Notes: generated by a model from the letters alone, not told the origin. A stretch of 64,000 nucleotides of DNA from Octopus vulgaris (GCA_951406725.2 OX597822.1:109244001-109308000); one strand, 5' to 3'. Shown: positions 1-54,861, numbered from the stretch's first letter. Program-made: numbers and translations.

Positions 1-949
1 AAACTATATTTTAATGTCGTTCGTAACCATTATACATGTATGCTGGAATGTAGATAATGCTACTTCAGTAACATTTCTTCCATGGGGGAACAAAACCAAA
101 GTATAAAATTAAGTATGGATTTAAAAAATGGAACTGGTACTAAAAGCCCAATGCAAAGTATATTAACGACAAATGTAAAGGGAATATAGCTGAAAGGTCA
201 CGCATATTGAAAACCCTAAATACATTTCCAAATTGTCTACATGGAATATCAAGCTTTGATGTCATACGAACATTTCATCAAAAATCTACAAGCAACTACG
301 CGATCATGTTTTCCACTTTGAACCGGGCGCTGTGACTATAATAATCTATGTTCCCATTGAATAAAAGTGAAGTTACTCGAATAGGCGAGTGTGCACGTAA
401 GTAAACTTTATGAACTCAGGAGCTCTATGTCTGTGTATATGGCTCCTGTAGAATCGCAGTTAAATGACTGACACAAGCAAAAGAATGAAAGAATATATAT
501 CTTTCTGCTTGTGTATGTGACCGTGATAAATTCTCAAAAACGATTCGTTCATGATTTGGATGTATTTCCTAACAGAGATTTTCGTTATATATGATATCGA
601 TTGCCGCTATCCAAAGTTGGGAAAATTTATCTAATTATTCCATATATATATAGTGCTTTAATAATTAAGTACCAACGAGGTCTAATATTATGTACTGCCT
701 ATTGAATCGCTGACCTACAAGTGAAAATGTCGATTTAATTCTTCATTTGCATTTTTTCTTCTTCTTTTTCTTTTACTCATAGATCACAATTCATTGAGTT
801 TAACTCTGATCAAAGCTATTCTTCTCATGGCGATATAATAATTAATAAGCATACTGTATTTAATTCTATTTTATCTGATACACCGTTGTGATTTGATAGC
901 TACTCGAGCAAAATGATGGTCATTTCTTCAATAGCTTAGACATTCGTAC

Positions 950-8354: not shown

Positions 8355-8461
8355 CGTGACCGACAAGGCTATCAGATGTTGCTACACATCGCTAGCCAAA
8401 ATGCGGTTCGCATTGTTTTAGCCTTCAAATAACGCCACCCTGCTGGCTAAGCGAGCAGGCC
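8355..8461. repeat. 107-bp interspersed-repeat fragment, copy 2
   Basis: Direct copy of 7828-7934. Confidence 0.85.
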
Positions 8462-8482
8462 ATATATATATATATATATATA

Positions 8483-8900
8483 CTCTTTTCTCTCTCTTTT
8501 TTACTCTTTTACTTGTTTCAGTCATTTGACTGCGGCCATGCTGGAGCGCCGCCTTAAATCGAGCAACTCGACCCCGGGACTTATTCTTTTGTAAGCCCAG
8601 TACTTATTCTATCGGTCTCTTTTGCAGAACCGCTAAGAAGCGGAGACATAAACACACCAGCATCTGTTGTCAAGCAATGCTAGGGAGACAATCACAGACA
8701 CACAAAGACACACACGCATGTATATATATACATATATACGACGGGCTTCGTTCAGTTTCCGTCTACCAAATCCACTCACAAGGCATTGGTCGGCCCGAGG
8801 CTATAGCAGAAGACACTTGCCCAAGTTGCCACGCAGTGGGACTGAACCCGGAACCATATGGTTGGTAAACAAGCTACTTACCACACAGCCACTCCTGCGC

Positions 8901-8901
<1 letters not shown>
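8483..8901 (-). mobile_element. tRNA-derived SINE, family A (long, with internal microsatellite)
   Basis: Minus-strand head ggcgcaggagtggctgtgtggtaag...ggttcagtccc has A/B-box-like motifs; conserved body; aaagagt-type tail; homologous to the copies at 14888 and 19565. Confidence 0.92.
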
Positions 8902-8936
<35 letters not shown>

Positions 8937-8940
<4 letters not shown>

Positions 8941-11900
8941 CAACAATTGAGGGTAAAATTAATTAATTATTAATCAATTTCACCAAGTATTCAGTATGTA
9001 AAGGGACCATTATAGGCGAATTCAAAATATTACATTATATATAAGGGCTTAGTAAAATAAATTACTTTGCCACATACTGAACTCATTAGAAATAGCAGCT
9101 AAAGAAATTTCTTCAGCTATTTCTAATACTTAAAGAAGATCTCTCTCAGATAGTGTTTGCCTAAACCAACTCACAAAAGTATGGGGGAAAAAAATATTAA
9201 AAAATCAAGTGCAAAGGTTATTTGAGAACGTACGTTTCTAGATTAGTCAATTCGACATTTCTTTCTTCAGCTCAGAATTCCTTGAATCGGATTTGGGAAC
9301 ACTGAAAGTCGGGAGCATACCCTTTCGGCTTCTAATCACCTCTAGAATTCTGCTCGAACTAAAAGTGCTATCAAATTCGAATATGCAAGCGAAGAATTTC
9401 TGCTCTCCCCTTTCCACCAGCGTGGGTTAAAATTGACAAACACCATGTATTAACGGTGAAAACCGCAGCATTTAACAGAGAGAGATGAATTATAATTTCA
9501 ACAATTGAGGGTAAAATTAATTAATTATTAATCAATTTCACCAAGTATTCAGTATGTAAAGGGACCATTATAGGCGAATTCAAAATATTACATTATATAT
9601 AAGGGCTTAGTAAAATAAATTACTTTGCCACATACTGAACTCATTAGAAATAGCAGCTAAAGAAATTTCTTCAGCTATTTCTAATACTTAAAGAAGATCT
9701 CTCTCAGATAGTGTTTGCCTAAACCAACTCACAAAAGGTATGGGGGAAAAAACATTAAAAAAAAAATCAAGTGCAAAGGTTATTTGAGAACGTACGTTTC
9801 TAGATTAGTCAATTCGACATTTCTTCTTCAGCTCAGAATTCCTTGAATCGGATTTGGGAACACTGAAAGTCGGGAGCATACCCTTTCGGCTTCTTAATCA
9901 CCTCTAGAATTCTGCTCGAACTAAAAGTGCTATCAAATTCGAATATGCAAGCGAAGAATTTCTGCTCTCCCCTTTCCACCAGCGTGGGTTAAAATTGACA
10001 AACACCATGTATTAACGGTGAAAACCGCAGCATTTAGCAGAGAGAGATGAATTATAATTTCAACAATTGAGGGTAAAATTAATTAATTATTAATCAATTT
10101 CACCAAGTATTCAGTATGTAAAGGGACCATTATAGGCGAATTCAAAATATTACATTATATATAAGGGCTTAGTAAAATAAATTACTTTGCCACATACTGA
10201 ACTCATTAGAAATAGCAGCTAAAGAAATTTCTTCAGCTATTTCTAATACTTAAAGAAGATCTCTCTCAGATAGTGCTTGCCTAAACCAACTCACAAAGTA
10301 TGGGGGAAAAAACATTAAAAAATCAAGTGCAAAGGTTATTTGAGAACGTACGTTTCTAGATTAGTCAATTCGACATTTCTTTCTTCAGCTCAGAATTCCT
10401 TGAATCGGATTTGGGAACACTGAAAGTCGGGAGCATACCCTTTCGGCTTCTAATCACCTCTAGAATTCTGCTCGAACTAAAAGTGCTATCAAATTCGAAT
10501 ATGCAAGCGAAGAATTTCTGCTCTCCCCTTTCCACCAGCGTGGGTTAAAATTGACAAACACCATGTATTAACGGTGAAAACCGCAGCATTTAGCAGAGAG
10601 AGATGAATTATAATTTCAACAATTGAGGGTAAAATTAATTAATTATTAATCAATTTCACCAAGTATTCAGTATGTAAAGGGACCATTATAGGCGAATTCA
10701 AAATATTACATTATATATAAGGGCTTAGTAAAATAAATTACTTTGCCACATACTGAACTCATTAGAAATAGCAGCTAAAGAAATTTCTTCAGCTATTTCT
10801 AATACTTAAAGAAGATCTCTCTCAGATAGTGCTTGCCTAAACCAACTCACAAAAGTATGGGGGAAAAAAAATTAAAAAATCAAGTGCAAAGGTTATTTGA
10901 GAACGTACGTTTCTAGATTAGTCAATTCGACATTTCTTTCTTCAGCTCAGAATTCCTTGAATCGGATTTGGGAACACTGAAAGTCGGGAGCATACCCTTT
11001 CGGCTTCTAATCACCTCTAGAATTCTGCTCGAACTAAAAGTGCTATCAAATTCGAATATGCAAGCGAAGAATTTCTGCTCTCCCCTTTCCACCAGCGTGG
11101 GTTAAAATTGACAAACACCATGTATTAACGGTGAAAACCGCAGCATTTAGCACAGAGAGATGAATTATAATTTCAACAATTGAGGGTAAAATTAATTAAT
11201 TATTAATCAATTTCACCAAGTATTCAGTATGTAAAGGGACCATTATAGGCGAATTCAAAATATTACATTATATATAAGGGCTTAGTAAAATAAATTACTT
11301 TGCCACATACTGAACTCATTAGAAATAGCAGCTAAAGAAATTTCTTCAGCTATTTCTAATACTTAAAGAAGATCTCTCTCAGATAGTGTTTGCCTAAACC
11401 AACTCACAAAAGTATGGGGAAAAAACATTAAAAATCAAGTGCAAAGGTTATTTGAGAACGTACGTTTCTAGATTAGTCAATTCGACATTTCTTTCTTCAG
11501 CTCAGAATTCCTTGAATCGGATTTGGGAACACTGAAAGTCGGGAGCATACCCTTTCGGCTTCTTATCACCTCTAGAATTCTGCTCGAACTAAAAGTGCTA
11601 TCAAATTCGAATATGCAAGCGAAGAATTTCTGCTCTCCCCTTTCCACCAGCGTGGGTTAAAATTGACAAACACCATGTATTAACGGTGAAAACCGCAGCA
11701 TTTAACAGAGAGAGATGAATTATAATTTCAACAATTGAGGGTAAAATTAATTAATTATTAATCAATTTCACCAAGTATTCAGTATGTAAAGGGACCATTA
11801 TAGGCGAATTCAAAATATTACATTATATATAAGGGCTTAGTAAATTAAATTACTTTGCCACATACTGAACTCATTAGAAATAGCAGCTAAAGAAATTTCT

Positions 11901-11959
11901 TCAGCTATTTCTAATACTTAAAGAATATCTCTCTCAGATAGTGCTTGCCTAAACCAACT
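8937..11959 (-). mobile_element. Tandem array of ~558-bp hammerhead-bearing non-coding units (5.4 copies); retrozyme-like/PLE-derived
   Basis: Units start atttcaacaattgaggg at 8937, 9495, 10057, 10613, 11170 and 11725 (periods 558, 562, 556, 557, 555). Units are near-identical, have no ORF, and carry an HHR-like motif on the minus strand; the array begins directly after (TA)n. Confidence 0.9.
9223..9274 (-). ncRNA. Type-I hammerhead-like motif (further copies at 9785-9835, 10341-10392, 10898-10949, 11453-11504)
   Basis: tgag-CTGAAGA-a aga aat gtc gaatt gac taa tct a-GAAAC-gtac-GTT-ctca. Stem I is tgag/ctca, stem II is imperfect, loop 3 is palindromic GTAC. Confidence 0.7.
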
Positions 11960-12683
11960 TTAATGTTTTTTCCCCCATACTTTTGTGAGTTGGTTTAGGC
12001 AAGCACTATCTGAGAGAGATCTTCTTTAAGTATTAGAAATAGCTGAAGAAATTTCTTTAGCTGCTATTTCTAATGAGTTCAGTATGTGGCAAAGTAATTT
12101 ATTTTACTAAGCCCTTATATATAATGTAATATTTTGAATTCGCCTATAATGGTCCCTTTACATACTGAATACTTGGTGAAATTGATTAATAATTAATTAA
12201 TTTTACCCTCAATTGTTGAAATTATAATTCATCTCTCTCTGCTAAATGCTGCGGTTTTCACCGTTAATACATGGTGTTTGTCAATTTTAACCCACGCTGG
12301 TGGAAAGGGGAGAGCAGAAATTCTTCTCTTGCATATTCGAATTTGATAGCACTTTTAGTTCGAGCAGAATTCTAGAGGTGATTAGAAGCCGAAAGGGTAT
12401 GCTCCCGACTTTCAGTGTTCCCAAATCCGATTCAAGGAATTCTGAGCTGAAGAAAGAAATGTCGAATTGACTAATCTAGAAACGTACGTTCTCAAATAAC
12501 CTTTGCACTTGATTTTTTAATGTTTTTTCCCCCATACTTTTGTGAGTTGGTTTAGGCAAGCACTATCTGAGAGAGATCTTCTTTAAGTATTAGAAATAGC
12601 TGAAGAAATTTCTTTAGCTGCTATTTCTAATGAGTTCAGTATGTGGCAAAGTAATTTATTTTACTAAGCCCTTATATATAATG

Positions 12684-12689
<6 letters not shown>
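11960..12689 (+). mobile_element. Inverted arm (~1.3 units) of the 558-bp array
   Basis: Reverse complement of the unit sequence, ending in (TA)n. It forms a ~700-bp-arm palindrome with a 28-nt spacer (11960-11987). Confidence 0.93.
12443..12494 (+). ncRNA. Type-I hammerhead-like motif, plus-strand copy
   Basis: tgagCTGAAGAaagaaatgtcgaattgactaatctaGAAACgtacGTTctca read directly on the + strand. Confidence 0.7.
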
Positions 12690-12742
<53 letters not shown>

Positions 12743-13667
12743 ATATATATATCTGTTAGTGTATACAAATTCGAGTAGATGATATATTAGTACCTGTGAG
12801 TTATATATTTATATTTGAATTTCATTTTTTATATTGCTTCAACTACTATAGCCACACTCCTGTTTTGTTTGCATCTAATTTTTTTTATTTCTGTAATTTT
12901 TTTGCGAAGAACATCAGTGATAATTGTCATATGTCATACTTTTACAAGTCATTAATCGTTAGGCTATCACGAAGATAATTCAGTAAATATAAATAACATT
13001 GTTATCCTGTTGAAATAACTATGAAAATATTGAAATGTTCTGCATTATCATTAGTTTATTCCACTGATAAATAAATCACATTCAATATTGAAAATAATTT
13101 GATGTTATTGACTCGTTGTTTATGATGTGGGTAAACGGTAGCTAACTTTCCAATAATTTTAATCCTCCCCGTAGGAATTTACTTCACTAATGTTGAAAAC
13201 AAATAATTTATTAATTTATTGACAGGAACCTTTGAAATGATTGTATACGTGCTACTGGTGGAAATATATAATAGAAACGTCTGTGTAATAAGCAGTACTT
13301 TATCTGGTCATAATACAATGACATATAAATATGTCAGCACCTTGGATAAATTTCTAGGTTTGATCATTGTTCTTTTTCATCATGCTTCCCTCAATTTGTA
13401 CACACATGCTTTATTCGCATATGACCACAACACCTCACAACAAATCTGCAATGACTTGAAGAAAGGGCATCTGAGATACAACCTGAAATTAAGCTCCACG
13501 AATCTTAACTGAATCACAATCAAACAACACTGTATCGAATTCAAGCAACCATTATTATGTACAGCATGCGTGTAGAACCTTACGTGTCACCAGAGGTTTG
13601 GGGCTCCGCCATATCGGATGGCTTCAGCAAGGAATTTTCAAGTATATATGCAATATTAACTAAACGA

Positions 13668-13885
13668 AAGGAGGTGATCTGGCAGAAATGCTGGCACGCC
13701 GGGTGAAATGCTTTGCAGCATTTCGTATGTCTTTACGTTCTGAGTTCAAAATCTCTCGGGGTCGACTTTGCATTTCATCTTTTCTGGGTCGATAAATTGA
13801 GTACCAGTTGCGTACTGGGGTCGATCAAATCGACTGACCCCCTTCCCCAAAATTTTAGGTCTTCTGTCTAAAGTAGAAAAGAATA
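13668..13885 (+). mobile_element. tRNA-derived SINE, family B (short)
   Basis: ggaggtgatctggcagaa...gagttcaaa...gtcgactttgc...agtaccagtt; homologous to the copies at 14329, 17346 and 19006. Confidence 0.88.
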
Positions 13886-14149
13886 TAATCTAAAGCATAT
13901 CATAAAGCGCTTTTCACCCCTTCGTTCCTAGAACATATTTCGTTCGACTCCCATTTCTATTGACCATGTATAAGGTGAGAGCCACAATACGATACGGATG
14001 CCTTCACTAATTATTGTACTGTATTGTCCGCCGCTACACTCAAACATTTTTGTATACAACATATACATTCGCTGTAAATCAATCGATACATTGGCAAGAA
14101 TTTTTCCAATCAGCACATTCCGAACAATAATCAAAGCGACCAGAGGAAC

Positions 14150-14885
14150 AAGGTAATATGTATCAATTCTCTAGCCCTCCCAATTATAATTTACAGCTAC
14201 AATATTTTAACTGGACTCTAAATAAGCTAATCAAAATAAACAAGAAAACAAGAAAAATAATGACAGTATTTAGGATGCGCCATCCAAAGTCTGACAGAAA
14301 GGTTATATACACAACGTATATATACAACAAGGCGGCGAGCTGGCAGAAACGGTAGGGCGCCGGGCGAAATGCTTAGCGGTATTTCGTCTGCGTTACGTTG
14401 TGAGTTCAAATTCCGCCGAGGGAGGTCGACTTTGCCTTTCATCCTTTCGGGGTCGATAAATTAAGTACCAGTTACGCACTGGTGTCGATGTAATCGACTT
14501 AATCCGTTTGTCTGTCCTTGTTTGTCTCCTCTATGTTTAGCCCCTTGTGGGTAGTAAAGAAATATATATACACAACGTATGAAAGGTGGAAAACTATTAC
14601 GAAATAACCATCATAGAACTATCGAAATACCTTGAGAAGCAAGGTAAACTAATACAAATAGCCACAAAACACGAACAAAGCAACACAAAACTGTTTTCAG
14701 TTTTTAATGAAGCTGACAAATACTAAAAAGTAATCATAGTATCCAACAACCATGAAGAAACGGAAGGAACAACAACATCTCTAAAACAACTAAAACTTCA
14801 ACAGCAATTGATCCTTATAAAATGATAGCAAGAAAATCCCGTTCATAGCAAATACTTGGTTAAATTAAACAGAAAAGAAACAGAG
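14150..14885 (+). pseudogene. Decayed non-LTR retrotransposon RT C-terminal fragment, R4/Dong-like, interrupted by a SINE
   Basis: NWTLNKLIKINKKTRKIMTVFRMRHPKSD, then R-MKGG after the SINE, then ENPVHSKY. These match the WTxxELxxIDRKTRK...HHPKSD..RLY..RxxGG and KPLHGxY motifs. Confidence 0.7.
14329..14564 (+). mobile_element. SINE family B with 16-bp target-site duplication
   Basis: Full head ggcggcgagctggcagaa; TSD tatatacacaacgtat at 14304-14319 and 14565-14580. Confidence 0.92.
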
Positions 14886-15063
14886 AGGAGGGGCTGAGTG
14901 GTAAGTAGCTTGCTAACCAACCACATGGTTCCGGGTTCAGTCCCACTGCGTGGCATCTTGGGCAAGTGTTTCTTCTATATCCCCGGGTCGACCAATGCCT
15001 TGTGAGTGGATTTGGTAGACGGAAACTGAAAGAAGCCTGTCGTATATATGTATATATATATAT

Positions 15064-15693
15064 ACTAAGTAATTAAGGGTTTAGCAACGAATTGCCTCAC
15101 CAACACACCGAATTTAGAAATAGCAGTCAAAGAGATATAGCTATTCATTCTACTAAAAGGGGGATCTCAGTAAAAACACAGCACTTGAAAGGCAAACACA
15201 GACAGGTAAGAAAGAAAGAATGAAATGACGGCAAGCTACCTACGGACGTACGTTTCGAGATCAAGTTTTAGGATAGCATAAGAATTAGAAAATTCTACTT
15301 TACCCAAACTTCTTCTCTCATCGGCGCAGGATACCACAATTGTGAATAATTGTATATTAAATTTTGAGATACTAGAATGCATCATCTCAACTCAGTGTCA
15401 GAGCGAGCCAAAGCATGACCAGTACCACGAAATTCAAAGTTTGAATGAAAGTTTGCGTCACCAGCCCCCTTCCACCCGCGTGTAGCCAAGAGATCCCCCT
15501 TTTAGTAGAAGGAATAGCTATATCTCTTTGACTGCTATTTCTAAATTCGGTGTGTTGGTGAGGCAATTCGTTGCTAAACCCTTAATTACTTAGTATTACT
15601 TAAATTTTCCTCGAATGGGGCTTTTACATGCCGAAATCTACTTGGTGTAATTGATAATTATCCCTAATTAATTAAGTTCACCCTTTATTATTA

Positions 15694-15697
<4 letters not shown>
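15064..15697. mobile_element. Two-armed hammerhead element homologous to the 558-bp unit
   Basis: Arm 15064-15490 plus inverted arm 15491-15697; about 105 bp shared in inverted orientation. Shares ttaattaatta, caccaagta, aaggg-ttag, ttagaaatagcag, acgtacgtttc and cccc-ttccacc blocks with the array unit. Confidence 0.88.
15239..15330 (-). ncRNA. Type-I hammerhead ribozyme with extended stem II
   Basis: cctgcg-CCGATGA-[gaga..aagttt gggta..agaatt ttct aattct..tatcc..aaactt..tctc]-GAAAC-gtac-GTC-cgtagg. 6-bp stem I, U4C core variant, GUC cleavage triplet. Confidence 0.85.
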
Positions 15698-15756
<59 letters not shown>

Positions 15757-16279
15757 TTGTCCCCTAGCATTGCTTGACAACCGATGCTCGTGTGTTTATG
15801 TCCCCGCTACTTAGCGGTTCGGCAAAAGAGGCCGATAGAATAAGTACTGGGCTTACAAAAAAAAAAAAAGAATAAGTCCCGGGGTCGATTTGCTCGATTA
15901 AAGGCGGTGCTCCAGCATGGCCGCAGTCAAATGACTGAAACAAGTAAAAGAGTAATCTGCTGGGGTTTTTTTGTTGTTTTTTCTTCCACTAGAATTGCAT
16001 CTGATCTTCGCCCCAGTCCCATTCTCTCTTGCCACACGAATTATGTCTTGCTGTCTGCACTCGTCATTTCATACACGACATATTGTGACGTGCATGCAAT
16101 GACTGGCATTCATTCCCTGCACAATTTCCTCCTGTTGCCATCAAATCTGGAAGGGCTTGCGTACATTATCAGTAGGAACAGTCGGTCGAAGATAAAGTAA
16201 TCAAAATGTGTAGTTCTCCAACTTTCATTTGTGAATTTCTATACTTGTGTTTTGTATTTTGTAACTTCTTTAATCCTGC

Positions 16280-16711: not shown

Positions 16712-17160
16712 TATTGATATTTTGTGCTGAATCTTGGACAAAATGAACGAATGTTGCGGTGGTTGTGCATTCGTTAAATATTAATTTAAGATTATTTTTG
16801 TAATTTTTATTCAATTTAATCTAGTTTAAGCTCACGAGCTGTGGCCATGCTGGGGTAAACAGTTATAGATATTGATGTCATTTGAACTATACAGTATCAA
16901 GTCTAACACGTTGCACAATTTAAACTTTTACGTCATAAATTCTGACATGTTACTGCAGTTTCTATCAATGATAATAAATGATGGAAATAAAGTTGAGCTA
17001 TATTGCAGTGAACAGGAATGAGCACATAATACAATATTACATTAAATACAATAGTGTTAATATATTTTAATGATGTAACCCGGGAATCAATACGACCTGT
17101 TAACGATAATGTAGTCAAAAGCATTATAACCTTTATAGAAGTGTAGTAGTAAGGGGGATA

Positions 17161-17582
17161 TACCTATTTCTTTACTACCCAAAAGGGGATAAACACGAAG
17201 AGGACAAACAAGGACAGACAAACGGATTAAGTCGATTACATCGATCCCAGTGCATAAACTAGTACTTATTTAATCGATCTCGAAAGGATGAAAGGCAAAG
17301 TCGATCTCGGCGGAATTTGAACTCAGAACGTAACGGCAGACGAAATACCTATTTCTTTATTACCCACAAGGGGACAAACAGAGAGGGGACAAACAAGGAC
17401 AGACAAACGGTTCAAGTCGATTATATCGGCCCCAGTGCGTAACTGGTACTTATTTTATCCATCCCGAAAGGATGAAAGGCAAAGTCGACCTCGGTGGAAT
17501 TTGAACTCAGAACGCAGTGGCAGACGAAATGCCGTCAAGTATTTCGCCTGGAGCACTAGCGTTTCTGCTAGCTCGCCACCTT
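17161..17582 (-). mobile_element. Tandem SINE family B (partial copy plus full copy)
   Basis: Two consecutive copies at about 17161-17345 and 17346-17582. Confidence 0.9.
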
Positions 17583-30745: not shown

Positions 30746-31123
30746 TGTGTGTATTTATGTATGTATGTGTATGTGTGTGTATATGTATATTTATATATAT
30801 TCACCGCACTGTATACATATACGCATATCTATATATGCAAATATGCTTCTTATATAATTACGTGTGTAAATTCTTTTTGCGCGTGTGTGTTTATTAAGAG
30901 GTTATTTCTCTTTGCGCTCATATCTACTATAATGCATAAATATTTATGATAAATTAAGTATGGCATTACTTTCATATGTTTATATTTCGTAAAATATATT
31001 CGCTCTAGAAACTTTTGCCGGTTTTCACTTTTCTTTCGGTATATCGTTTCGAAATTTGAAATTATCCAATTCATTTAATGTAACAACTTACTCGAATAGC
31101 ATATTAAAATTTCAGTAGAATGC

Positions 31124-38361: not shown

Positions 38362-38399
<38 letters not shown>

Positions 38400-38434
38400 A
38401 TATATATATATATATAAACATATATATATATAAG

Positions 38435-38473
<39 letters not shown>

Positions 38474-53394: not shown

Positions 53395-54861
53395 AATATG
53401 TGACCTCGTGAGTACCGCTGGCGATTTTCTTTTCCACTGTCTTCCCTTCTCGAGATCATTCCTTCTCCTATGTTTCCGACGAAGAGCTCCGCTCGAAACG
53501 TTAAAACCTCCTTCTTCCCTTCTTTCCTGTGCGTCCAATAATACTTTATTTGTTCCACGTCCTCGCGTTGCTGTGTTTTTTTGTTTTTTTGCGTTTTCTT
53601 TTTTGGATTAACTATATATATATATATATACACGCACACATACATACACATGTGTTTATACGTAACCGGTATGAACTTACTTCTCTTAATCCATTATACT
53701 CACATTTAAATCACAGATATTCTATCTGTTTCTCTATACAAACATGATGCAATACCCTTTTCTTTCTTGTATATGGGATAGTGTAAGTTATTTTCATGCT
53801 TATGTCTTCCTATGAAACCTGAAAGCATTCCGATAGTTGAAATACTGTCTTCGTGGAGAGAGAAAAGTGTATACTTTTATTGACTAACGTACCTTGTTCT
53901 CCTAACTGGATATTGGATTTTTACGTTGCGTTCATTAAATATAATAGCATCCACTTACAAAAATATATTACAGCGACTTATTAAATATTCATTATTGATA
54001 CTAATAGACCTATTATTCCTAATTTACAATGAAAAAAATAATATCCGTGCCATCATATAATTGACCTCCTGATAACAGTATCACAGGTAAGACTGTTAAC
54101 GTATTCAAGTTTAACTTAATGTGAGTATTTTATTGCTTTATATCATTATATGAAAGTGAAAAATAACCGAGTTTATTGCCGGTTTAATTGACGGAAAGTC
54201 AACAAATCCACCTCGGCTTCCTTTTATATTCATCTAATAATCGCTGTTAATGACGCGTATATAAATACTTCTACACTTCCACGCTTTTATAAATCTATAA
54301 ACACAACTAAACTACATCTCCGATTTATTTGTTCCATATGTCACTCTCTTCTTTTCTCTACCCTCCCCATCCGTCTCTCTTGCATATATATTACTGCATC
54401 TGTGAAAACGGACATACACATTGCCCCAAAATTGAGGCGCCATATATTAAGCAATCTATTAAGTACGTCATTAATTATCAGATGACAGGTATATATATTT
54501 AGATATCAATGTCTATCTCTATATTGGCATCAATACTCCACTTATATTTCACCGATTCTCTTATCGTCTTGTTTTCTTTTTCCATCTTAACCTCTCTTTA
54601 CTTGATAGTCTCACTATCTGTCTGTATACATGGGAAAATATAAGCTTATTAAATTTATATAGACACTCGCACATGCACCAAAATTACTGAACGGAAGGCA
54701 GATGAGTAGTGAGAAGAAGAAATAAGGTATATATATATATATATATATATATCGATGTGTGTGAGTGTATGTCCTTGTATATATACCAATACAAATAAAA
54801 TATCCATTTATTTGAGTACACTTAGGTGCATATGCATGTGGATATATGTGTGTGTGCTTGT

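What the first reader, a model, noticed from the sequence alone, without database searches (positions are those of the whole stretch)
15239..15330. Best-formed ribozyme: U4C-variant type-I hammerhead with a ~60-nt stem II and GUC site
Seen: 6-bp stem I (cctgcg/cgtagg), CCGAUGA core, a multi-segment stem II, and GAAAC-GUAC-GUC. Stem I differs completely from the array's (tgag/ctca) while the core and GUAC palindrome are kept. This compensatory change supports selection on RNA structure. The one-to-two base-pair stem III with a palindromic loop implies dimeric cleavage, which tandem copies would supply.
Basis: partly seen in the sequence, partly recalled or inferred. Interest (0 to 1): 0.75.

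Follow-up and report, generated by a model that had tools for sequence, protein, structure and literature searches.

The report
Variant hammerhead in a Penelope-type repeat
This 92-base stretch is a hammerhead-ribozyme-like motif with one changed core base, lying in a truncated copy of an abundant 587-bp mobile repeat, and it would likely cut its RNA only when two copies pair; this kind of element is already known from other animals.

Summary
On the minus strand, 15330..15239 reads stem I CCUGCG/CGUAGG, core CCGAUGA, a 61-nt stem II rod, GAA, the 8-nt palindrome ACGUACGU and C17. The predicted cut lies between 15245 and 15244.

It is not a lone ribozyme. It belongs to one 5'-truncated copy of a ~587-bp non-coding repeat. 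An inverted partial copy lies beside it, and both outer ends sit in (TA)n. At least 251 exact-context copies in this 2.8-Gb genome carry the same C4 core, and 65 carry the canonical CUGAUGA.

Sibling U4 copies and an older ~70%-identical family match Rfam Hammerhead_1 end to end, at 21 and 24 bits. Both scores are below the gathering score of 34. The window copy gets no Rfam hit.

Across 36 independent loci the family shows Penelope-like insertion traits: variable 5' truncation, seamless tandems, head-to-head inverted copies and (TA)n targets.

Two copies are predicted to co-fold into a double hammerhead. Whether the C4 core cleaves is untested, and no usable RNA reads were available.

Verdict: a real, hammerhead-derived motif of a retrozyme/Penelope-type element. 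It is a new variant of a known kind and of moderate interest.

The parts
15239..15330 (-). Hammerhead-like motif, type-I topology. Stem I 15330-15325/15244-15239; core CCGAUGA 15324-15318 (C4 at 15323); stem II 15317-15257; GAA 15256-15254; palindromic helix III ACGUACGU 15253-15246; C17 at 15245. Predicted cut between 15245 and 15244.
   Evidence: Sequence; fold; dimer co-fold; identical in 39 copies found in the fetched loci; sibling U4 copy aligns to RF00163 over the same 92 nt.
15062..15491 (-). Direct, 5'-truncated copy of the ~587-bp repeat unit. Unit positions 341-587 lie at 15491..15245 and unit positions 25-200 at 15238..15062. An 18-bp deletion lies just 3' of stem I. The 3' end, at unit position 200, abuts (TA)n.
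   Evidence: BLAST of the cleavage-to-cleavage unit from L004 against the window copy: 99.2% and 98.3% identity.
15490..15699 (+). Inverted 5'-truncated partial copy (unit positions 95-303), head-to-head with the direct copy. Together with 15062-15168 it produces the 107-nt inverted repeat. Its 3' end, at unit position 303, abuts (TA)n.
   Evidence: I12: arms 15062-15168 / 15490-15596, 99% complementary; 99.0% identity to unit 95-303, reverse orientation.
15700..15760 (.). (TA)n microsatellite flanking the insertion on the right.
15040..15061 (.). TA-rich microsatellite remnant flanking the insertion on the left.
8937..12689 (.). Related family, ~557-562-bp unit. About 5.5 tandem units lie on the minus strand (to 11959) and 1.3 inverted units on the plus strand (11967-12689). 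Each unit has a less regular hammerhead-like motif (UGAG CUGAAGA ... GAAACGUACGUU CUCA). Both outer ends lie in (TA)n. This is context, not the finding itself.
   Evidence: no Rfam hit.

Best explanation
The stretch is the hammerhead-type motif, with C in place of the conserved U4, of one 5'-truncated copy of a ~587-bp non-coding repeat that is inserted in a (TA)n microsatellite with an inverted partial copy beside it; it is predicted to self-cleave its transcript after GUC (between 15245 and 15244, minus strand), likely only when two copies pair through their ACGUACGU helix III.

Shown:
- The motif and its fold.
- Its identity across hundreds of copies.
- Homology to copies with the canonical CUGAUGA core, which match Rfam Hammerhead_1 end to end.
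- The insertion architecture of the family: discrete 3' ends at TA-rich unit positions next to (TA)n, variable 5' truncation, seamless tandems of up to at least 6 units, and head-to-head inverted copies. This is the architecture described for Penelope-like elements (PLEs).
- Intact PLE ORFs (RT plus C-terminal GIY-YIG) in the same genome that also end in (TA)n.

Inferred:
- The family is a non-autonomous, PLE-mobilised 'retrozyme'.
- It would be transcribed in the hammerhead sense as multimers.
- These would be cut to unit length by double hammerheads, and possibly circularised by a host RNA ligase.
- The RNA would then be copied into (TA)n sites by target-primed reverse transcription, primed at UA-rich spots 200-310 nt downstream of the cut site.
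- The C4 core is probably a weakened but not dead catalyst.
- The window copy itself carries a single motif, so it could be cut only in trans-dimer with RNA from another copy.

The confidence given (0.6) is for the whole statement. Identity as a hammerhead-derived motif of a PLE-type repeat alone I put at about 0.9, and actual cleavage by the C4 core at about 0.45-0.5.
For: Motif and fold:
- Motif present and beyond chance.
- All 55 hammerhead instances picked up in L001-L030 carry CCGAUGA (some loci overlap).

Whole-genome exact counts:
- C4 context 251 and U4 context 65.
- G5A 0, stem-I C>U 0, stem-I G>A 2. Random CpG decay is therefore rare, and U4 and C4 copies are propagated lineages.
- 567 sites lie within 2 mismatches of the 23-mer.

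Rfam:
- U4 sibling L037:1501-1592 matches RF00163 model positions 1-45/45 at 21.1 bits, E 0.0068.
- Family B copy L049 scores 24.0 bits, E 0.00075.

Structure counts:
- The named hammerhead structure on 51 distinct homologues has 97.4% of cells paired, against 17-40% when partners are slid.
- 2 stem-II pairs change on both sides.
- Helix III states ACGUACGU, ACGUGCGU and ACGCGCGU are all self-complementary, allowing G.U.
- Unconstrained co-fold of two copies gives a double hammerhead at -59.2 kcal/mol.

Insertion architecture:
- 36 independent loci, 18 with both orientations.
- 57 of 68 outer ends lie next to (TA)>=5.
- 46 of 50 3' ends fall at unit positions 196-200, 209, 292-303 or 310.
- 5' ends are scattered.

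Other hammerhead families with a long stem II and 8-nt palindromes (ACAUAUGU, ACGAUCGU), plus PLE-type minimal hammerheads, occur in the same genome.

PLE ORFs:
- 6136 GIY-YIG candidates.
- L079 ORF has RVT_1 plus GIY-YIG.
- Its 3' end abuts (TA)n.

Literature, passages read:
- PLE hammerheads with long helix II, short or palindromic helix III and dimeric action (PMC4209133).
- Animal retrozymes (PMC7229834).
- PLE tandem/inverted insertions and (TA)n bias (PMC8557442).
- A U4C variant still viable in a viroid (PMC3088659).
Against: - The window copy has no Rfam hammerhead hit, either at gathering score or at E<=10 in a 301-nt search. Its siblings stay below the gathering score of 34.
- U4 is a conserved core base. 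PMC3088659 (passage read) says U4C 'considerably decreases activity in vitro'.
- RNAalifold on the joint MAFFT alignment of 51 homologues finds no hammerhead stems (-0.2 kcal/mol). On family B alone it recovers stem II but not stem I. On family A it also predicts a competing pairing that buries G5-G8.
- Covariation rests on few events. The measure 'pairs with a change on both sides' is reached by 490 of 500 shuffles.
- No autonomous element sharing sequence with the repeat was found. Of 30 PLE loci, only L080 shows 65-166-nt similarity, on the wrong side of the EN domain.
- Insertions run through the cut site, so templates were uncleaved or religated. No insertion arm starts cleanly at the cut site.
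- No RNA evidence was obtained.
Confidence: 0.6

Rival explanations
1. Dead relic. The motif descends from a working hammerhead, but the U4C change has inactivated it. The C4 subfamily spreads purely through the retroelement machinery, by read-through or multimeric transcripts, and needs no self-cleavage.
For: - C4 is fixed in the most abundant lineage, 251 exact-context copies against 65 with U4. Loss of the canonical base was therefore no bar to spread.
- All insertions contain uncut cleavage sites, and none begins at the cut site.
- U4C lowers activity in vitro (PMC3088659, passage).
- PLE hammerheads in general show low activity in vitro (PMC4209133, passage).
- The window copy gets no Rfam hit.
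Against: - Apart from position 4, every other core base, both stems and the palindrome are intact in all 39 identical copies and nearly all variants.
- The G5A change, which is equally likely at the same CpG, is seen 0 times against 65 for C>U. The family is young, though, so this is weak evidence.
- A U4C hammerhead supports viroid infectivity (PMC3088659, passage).
Confidence: 0.3
2. Chance resemblance. This is an AT-rich repeat that happens to contain hammerhead-like words.
For: No Rfam hit for the window copy. RNAalifold on the joint alignment is blank.
Against: - The strict motif is expected 0.01 times per shuffled window.
- Homologous copies match RF00163 over the whole model.
- At least four unrelated-looking families in this genome share the same layout.
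Confidence: 0.02
3. A DNA transposon or MITE whose 107-nt terminal inverted repeats flank an incidental hairpin-rich core, or a satellite that spreads by recombination only.
For: 107-nt inverted arms with 99% complementarity at 15062-15168 / 15490-15596. Tandem arrays exist.
Against: - The inverted junction differs from locus to locus and half of the loci have none: 18 of 36 have both orientations.
- 3' ends are discrete while 5' ends vary, which is the signature of reverse transcription from the 3' end.
- Copies are dispersed over many contigs, each in its own (TA)n.
Confidence: 0.03

Closest known systems
Hammerhead motifs of Penelope-like elements (Cervera & de la Pena 2014, PMC4209133, passages read; Lunse/Weinberg/Breaker 2017, recalled and not read here)
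   Same: Type-I layout, longer than usual helix II, G10.1-C11.1 closing pair, palindromic helix III implying action as a dimer. Many sequence families per genome. Association with PLE-style tandem and inverted insertions.
   Different: - Stem II here is a ~61-nt rod, not 6-8 bp.
- Stem I is a full 6 bp.
- Helix III is an 8-nt palindrome, not the 4-nt minimum.
- The core has C4.
- The motif sits in a 587-bp non-coding unit, not in the pLTR of an ORF-bearing element.
Animal non-LTR retrozymes (Cervera & de la Pena 2020, PMC7229834, abstract and passages read; Li et al. 2026 preprint 10.64898/2026.07.22.740005, abstract and outline read)
   Same: Non-coding, AT-rich tandem units with one type-I hammerhead each. 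Dimeric hammerheads in some lineages. Proposed mobilisation by PLE machinery. Known in a mollusc (mussel).
   Different: - The unit is 587 bp against the reported ~170-400 nt.
- Strong (TA)n targeting and frequent head-to-head inverted copies are documented here.
- Circular or linear RNAs were not examined here.
- No cephalopod case appeared in my searches.
Rfam Hammerhead_1 (RF00163); newt and schistosome satellite hammerheads acting as dimers (Forster et al. 1988, as cited in PMC4209133)
   Same: The Rfam consensus aUccagCUGAcGAG...CGAAACGcgCGUCcuggAu aligns column for column. Family B has the identical ACGCGCGU helix III.
   Different: The window copy scores too low to be reported. Siblings reach 21-24 bits against a gathering score of 34, because of the 57-58-nt insertion in stem II and, in the window copy, C4.
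Natural U4C hammerhead core variant of a viroid (mentioned in Perreault et al. 2011, PMC3088659, passage read; original paper not read)
   Same: Same core substitution. Reported to cut poorly in vitro yet suffice in vivo.
   Different: That is an infectious plant RNA, with a different hammerhead type (recalled) and context. Here C4 is the consensus of a genomic repeat lineage.

Membership tests
Hammerhead ribozyme, type I (Rfam RF00163, clan CL00010) | Three helices around the core, with stem I open and stems II and III closed (type-I order) | tested here: met
   Sequence. Stems I and II in the MFE. 97.4% of cells paired on 51 homologues. As a monomer, helix III is only 2-3 bp; it reaches 8 bp in the dimer.
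Hammerhead ribozyme, type I (Rfam RF00163, clan CL00010) | Conserved core C3 U4 G5 A6 N7 G8 A9 / G12 A13 A14 / A15.1-U16.1 / H17 | tested here: not met
   All positions are present except U4, which is C in the window copy and in 251 exact-context copies. The full consensus is present in 65 sibling copies and in family B.
Hammerhead ribozyme, type I (Rfam RF00163, clan CL00010) | Score at or above the Rfam gathering threshold (34 bits) | tested here: not met
   Window copy: no hit at gathering score or at E<=10. Siblings: 21.1 bits and 24.0 bits, with the full model matched.
Hammerhead ribozyme, type I (Rfam RF00163, clan CL00010) | Site-specific self-cleavage 3' of H17, giving 2',3'-cyclic phosphate and 5'-OH ends | not testable with these tools
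   Only assembled contigs of runs of guessed kind were available. These cannot show RNA ends.
Animal non-LTR retrozyme | Non-coding tandem units, each with one type-I hammerhead | tested here: met
   Family level: seamless arrays with a 587-590-bp period, up to at least 6 units. No ORF of 130 aa or more at the locus. The window copy itself is a single truncated unit.
Animal non-LTR retrozyme | Unit-length linear and circular RNAs in tissues | not testable with these tools
   No RNA run on record.
Penelope-like element insertion (non-autonomous derivative) | 5' truncation, partial tandems, adjacent inverted 5'-truncated copy, microsatellite target (as described in PMC8557442) | tested here: met
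   36 independent loci: 18 with both orientations; 57 of 68 outer ends next to (TA)>=5; 3' ends clustered and 5' ends scattered. The window copy shows all of these traits except a tandem.
Penelope-like element insertion (non-autonomous derivative) | Sequence shared with, or shown dependence on, an autonomous RT+GIY-YIG element | tested here: inconclusive
   Intact PLE ORFs exist and also end in (TA)n. Of 30 EN loci scanned, none shares its 3' region with the repeat. Only 30 of 6136 candidates were looked at.

The most novel reading that the evidence does not exclude
The C4 hammerhead is not a defect but a working, perhaps deliberately attenuated, core variant. It has out-multiplied its canonical-U4 sister lineage in the same genome, 251 against 65 exact-context copies. 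This would be a natural paired experiment on how much self-cleavage a Penelope-mobilised RNA needs, and evidence that position 4 of the hammerhead core is less strictly constrained in dimeric, long-stem-II hammerheads than the textbook consensus says.
Probability: 0.3. Interest if true: 0.55.

Novelty: new variant of a known kind. Interest (0 to 1): 0.35.

Why it matters
Hammerheads in Penelope-like elements and animal retrozymes are established, so the class is not new. Four points are worth keeping.

1. This is a high-copy, young family whose consensus core breaks the U4 rule. A canonical sister lineage lies beside it in the same genome, so the effect of U4C on cleavage and on spread is directly testable with two natural sequences.
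2. The ~60-nt stem II and the 8-nt palindromic helix III recur in several unrelated families of this genome. This points to a lineage-specific hammerhead style that standard Rfam thresholds miss: no hit in the whole window.
3. The clean (TA)n targeting, the discrete 3' ends 200-310 nt past the cut site and the head-to-head copies give a well-defined substrate for studying how PLE reverse transcriptases prime and switch templates.
4. For genome annotation, these units would otherwise be labelled as unknown satellites or as MITE-like inverted repeats.

Tried and rejected
- **Rfam.** A gathering-score scan of the whole window gave 0 hits. The evalue scan of the whole window gave 297 hits, and the listed top rows are mostly microsatellite look-alikes of miRNA models, which I take as artefacts.
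- **RNA evidence.** The look-up of sequencing runs listed 24 runs. None is on record as RNA, so no RNA holder is listed, and all are Logan contigs. Laying X1, X2, X3 and X5 on L004:900-2500 gave fragmentary contigs, no joints and no start/end table. Contig breaks near 1568/1570 lie about 25 nt from the cut site, in a region that varies between copies. I draw nothing on expression or cleavage from this. Holders carry six coded organism labels at shares of 0.24-0.47. Only four runs of one label were laid, so I draw nothing on host range either.
- **Insertion arms starting at the cut site.** This would have been indirect evidence of cleavage in vivo. Five apparent cases in the BLAST layout (L006, L009, L011, L029, L031) dissolved on inspection into internal indels, a rearranged upstream unit, or junctions 7-9 nt away. 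Rejected.
- **Polarity of U4 versus C4.** In the ML tree of 57 copies, family B is all U4. Within family A, two C4 copies (L027, L030) are basal, and the U4 subfamily is sister to the main C4 clade. This needs 2 changes either way. So U4 is ancestral to A plus B, but whether the U4 sublineage of A is a CpG>TpG reversion stays open. Rows from overlapping loci were dropped before the tree: L004, L005, L023, L026, L038, L039, L043, L044, L055, L059.
- **RNAalifold.** The joint alignment gave no hammerhead. The per-family runs are partial.
- **Autonomous partner.** Not found among 30 GIY-YIG loci.
- **Earlier findings of this scan.** Three look-ups returned nothing.
- **ARAGORN.** It finds no tRNA in 8400-16200, so the tRNA-like look of the neighbouring SINE is unconfirmed.
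- **Literature.** The search 'CCGAUGA' returned 106 papers, and none of the 10 listed is about ribozymes. 'Hammerhead ribozyme' plus 'octopus' returned 5 papers; the 4 listed titles and abstracts describe no such element. A 2026 repeat annotation of an octopus genome (PMC13282606, passages read) lists Penelope-like families but does not contain the words hammerhead or retrozyme. Supplements of these papers were not opened and might list such families.

Full report
**1. What is in the sequence**

Read on the minus strand, 15330..15239 is CCUGCG-CCGAUGA-(61 nt)-GAA-ACGUACGU-C-CGUAGG. In hammerhead numbering the parts are:
- stem I, 6 bp with one G.U;
- core C3 C4 G5 A6 U7 G8 A9;
- stem II, opening G10.1-C11.1 as GAGA/UCUC;
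- G12 A13 A14;
- helix III from A15.1 to U16.1;
- C17 at 15245.

The single-strand MFE is -26.2 kcal/mol (z = -3.0, and 1 of 200 shuffles folds as well). It keeps stem I and a three-segment stem II rod. It also pairs part of the core with the helix III strand, which would be an inactive alternative fold.

A strict descriptor scan finds this one site in the 64-kb window. In 100 dinucleotide shuffles, 1 shuffle had a hit.

Helix III is better described as an 8-nt perfect palindrome than as a 1-2-bp stem with a palindromic loop.

**2. Rfam**

No family reaches its gathering score anywhere in the window. A 301-nt search around the motif at E<=10 gives no hammerhead hit. An array copy gives none either. 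The whole-window evalue scan mostly lists microsatellite artefacts. By the curated test, then, the window copy is not a Hammerhead_1 member.

**3. It is one copy of a large family**

A DNA search of the window's own genome (G000, 2.8 Gb, 227 contigs) with the 321 nt between the inverted arms found 1614 first-look candidates. Of these, 40 were scored and 49 matches were listed, most at 89-94% identity over 339 nt.

In the 30 loci fetched, 55 of 55 hammerhead instances read CCGAUGA. Some loci overlap.

Exact whole-genome counts of the 19-mer spanning stem I and the core:
- C4: 251.
- U4, CUGAUGA: 65.
- G5A: 0.
- Stem-I C>U: 0.
- Stem-I G>A: 2.
- 567 sites lie within two mismatches of a 23-mer.

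Sporadic CpG decay at neighbouring sites is almost absent. U4 copies also occur in their own tandem arrays with diagnostic stem-II changes. C4 and U4 are therefore two propagated lineages. C4 is not a lesion of the window copy.

**4. Anatomy of the unit and of the window copy**

Cut site to cut site, the unit is 587-588 bp. The window copy consists of:
- unit positions 341-587 at 15491..15245 (99.2% identity);
- unit positions 25-200 at 15238..15062 (98.3%), with an 18-bp deletion just after stem I;
- an upstream inverted copy of unit positions 95-303 at 15490..15699 (99.0%).

This explains the 107-nt inverted repeat found (I12). Both outer ends abut TA repeats. The locus holds one hammerhead motif only.

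**5. Insertion architecture of the family**

In 36 independent loci (6 overlapping loci dropped):
- 18 contain both orientations, head to head.
- 57 of 68 outer ends lie within 40 nt of (TA)>=5.
- Of 50 element 3' ends, 19 fall at unit positions 196-200, 9 at 209, 14 at 292-303 and 4 at 310.
- The 18 outer 5' ends are scattered between unit positions 1 and 487.
- Arrays are seamless across the cut site and reach at least 6 units (one search list).

The neighbouring 557-bp-unit array has the same layout. It runs 8937-11959 on the minus strand and 11967-12689 inverted, with (TA)n at both ends. Its unit is 68.7% identical to the 587 unit over about 214 nt.

Craig et al. (PMC8557442, passages read) describe this same set of traits for Penelope-like elements: 5' truncation, partial tandems, an adjacent inverted 5'-truncated copy, and microsatellite bias, with (TA)n bias noted for Naiads.

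No ORF of 130 aa or more lies at the locus, so the repeat is non-autonomous.

**6. Homologues with a canonical core**

The U4 sibling L037:1501-1592 aligns to RF00163 over model positions 1-45/45. It scores 21.1 bits (E 0.0068 in a 221-nt search), with a 57-nt insertion in stem II.

An older family, B, is about 70-73% identical in the hammerhead region, with copies 85-98% identical to one another. It reads CCUACG-CUGAUGA-GGAA...UUCC-GAA-ACGCGCGU-C-CGUAGG. It scores 24.0 bits, E 0.00075. Its helix III equals the Rfam consensus. Both scores are below the gathering score of 34.

**7. Structure tests**

On a MAFFT alignment of 51 distinct homologues (A1) I named the hammerhead pairs that are in register: stem I, the four proximal and two middle stem-II pairs, and three helix-III pairs.
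- 97.4% of 761 cells form standard pairs. With partners slid by 1-3 columns the figure is 17-40%, and 0 of 500 column shuffles reach it.
- Two stem-II pairs change on both sides (G-C/A-U and A-U/G-C), and one stem-I pair changes G.U/A-U.
- These reflect few events. The count 'pairs with a change on both sides' is reached by 490 of 500 shuffles, so covariation within this superfamily is modest.

Helix III occurs as ACGUACGU, ACGUGCGU and ACGCGCGU. All are self-complementary if G.U is allowed. That fits a dimeric helix, but it is only three states.

Results against:
- RNAalifold on A1 predicts essentially nothing (-0.2 kcal/mol).
- On family B alone it recovers stem II but replaces stem I with an alternative pairing.
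- On family A alone it recovers 5 of 6 stem-I pairs and stem II, plus a pairing that buries G5-G8.

Single-sequence folds of seven diverse copies all give stem I plus a 4-bp proximal stem II plus a distal rod.

Independent support comes from other, non-alignable hammerhead families in the fetched flanks:
- CUUUC/GGGAG with a 56-nt stem II and ACAUAUGU;
- UUGG/CCAA with ACGAUCGU;
- PLE-type minimal hammerheads, guuu-CUGACGA-A-GAGC...GCUC-GAAACGUA-aaac.

**8. Dimer**

As a monomer, the hammerhead-compatible fold (-23.3 kcal/mol) is less stable than the MFE (-26.2) and has no stable helix III.

Two copies co-folded without constraints give -59.2 kcal/mol. In that fold both cores are open, both stem II rods are formed, helix III is an intermolecular 8-bp helix, and the stem I strands are swapped. 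This is the double hammerhead. The ACGUACGU self-duplex alone is -9.8 kcal/mol.

This matches what Forster et al. proposed for newt and viroid hammerheads and what Cervera & de la Pena proposed for PLE hammerheads (PMC4209133, passages read).

**9. Possible mobiliser**

A Pfam GIY-YIG search of G000 gave 6136 candidates. Of these, 150 were scored and 148 reached E<=0.001, many with 781-aa open frames.

[quoted passage not shown] This element ends in '...ACAAATAT' directly followed by (TA)n, both in L079 and in a 5'-truncated copy in L081. A (TA)n-targeting autonomous PLE therefore exists.

None of 30 EN loci shares its 3' region with the repeat. The link is an inference.

**10. Mechanism proposed**

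Shown: sections 1-9 above.

Inferred:
- The family is transcribed in the hammerhead sense, since 3' ends and truncation polarity agree with that strand.
- Multimeric RNA is cut by double hammerheads to 587-nt units.
- Units are circularised by a host ligase, as shown for other animal retrozymes in PMC7229834.
- PLE RT copies multimeric or circular RNA from UA-rich internal sites into nicked (TA)n. This would yield seamless tandems, 5' truncation and snap-back inverted copies.

The fact that every insertion runs through an intact cut site fits either uncleaved or religated templates. It cannot distinguish between them. No arm starts at the cut site.

**11. The C4 question**

U4 is ancestral for families A plus B. 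Within A, the tree needs two changes either way.

Perreault et al. (PMC3088659, passage read) state that U4C considerably decreases activity in vitro yet permits viroid infectivity. That U4 contributes to the uridine turn of the core is my recollection, not a result of any call here.

I put about 45-50% on the C4 motif cleaving at a biologically useful rate as a dimer, and about 30% on it being a dead relic that rides on the retroelement machinery.

**12. Comparison and novelty**

It works like the hammerheads of PLEs and animal retrozymes.

As a member of Hammerhead_1, the window copy fails two tested criteria, U4 and the gathering score. I therefore file it as a hammerhead-derived core variant, while its siblings carry the full consensus.

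I found no description of such elements in cephalopod-like genomes in the searched library. Supplements were not opened.

Novelty: a new variant of a known kind. Interest is moderate.

Noticed in passing
window 8937-12689: Array of a related 557-562-bp unit: about 5.5 copies on the minus strand, then 1.3 inverted copies, with (TA)n at both ends. Its hammerhead-like motif (UGAG CUGAAGA ... A GAAACGUACGUU CUCA) has an extra A before G12 and a 10-nt palindrome (AACGUACGUU) that would pair A14 and U17 in a dimer. It gets no Rfam hit at E<=10.
   Followed up: partly
window 53476-53503 (+): Degenerate PLE-type minimal hammerhead, guuu-CCGACGA-A-GAGCUCCGCUC-GAAAC-GUUA-aaac. It also has C at position 4 and an extra U. 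Intact versions with CUGACGA and GAAACGUA occur in L013, L022 and L027.
   Followed up: partly
L081:131-208 (-) and 455-532 (+); L010 and L019: Two further hammerhead families with ~55-60-nt stem II rods and 8-nt palindromic helix III (ACGAUCGU; ACAUAUGU). The L081 pair is head-to-head and shares a (TA)n tract with a 5'-truncated PLE.
   Followed up: partly
L079:1-2880 and many places listed: [quoted passage not shown] Many copies have a 781-aa open frame. The ~1.1-kb 3' region contains repeated TGACGTC-type motifs, and the element ends directly in (TA)n. My scan found no canonical hammerhead in that 3' region.
   Followed up: partly
window 14886-15063 and 8718-8896 (inverted relative to each other); also 8501-8685 / 15762-15955: SINE-like repeats flank both hammerhead-bearing insertions in mirror order (inverted pairs I13-I16). 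ARAGORN calls no tRNA there. The mirrored flanks may mean a larger inverted duplication spanning about 8.5-16 kb.
   Followed up: no
window 17160-17530: Two copies of a 184-bp tandem repeat with 88% matches.
   Followed up: no
window, many sites (e.g. 30749-30839, 38373-38473): Dozens of sub-threshold 'miRNA' hits (mir-297, mir-3149, mir-466 and others). They are (TA)n/(CA)n microsatellites folding as hairpins, and I take them as artefacts.
   Followed up: no
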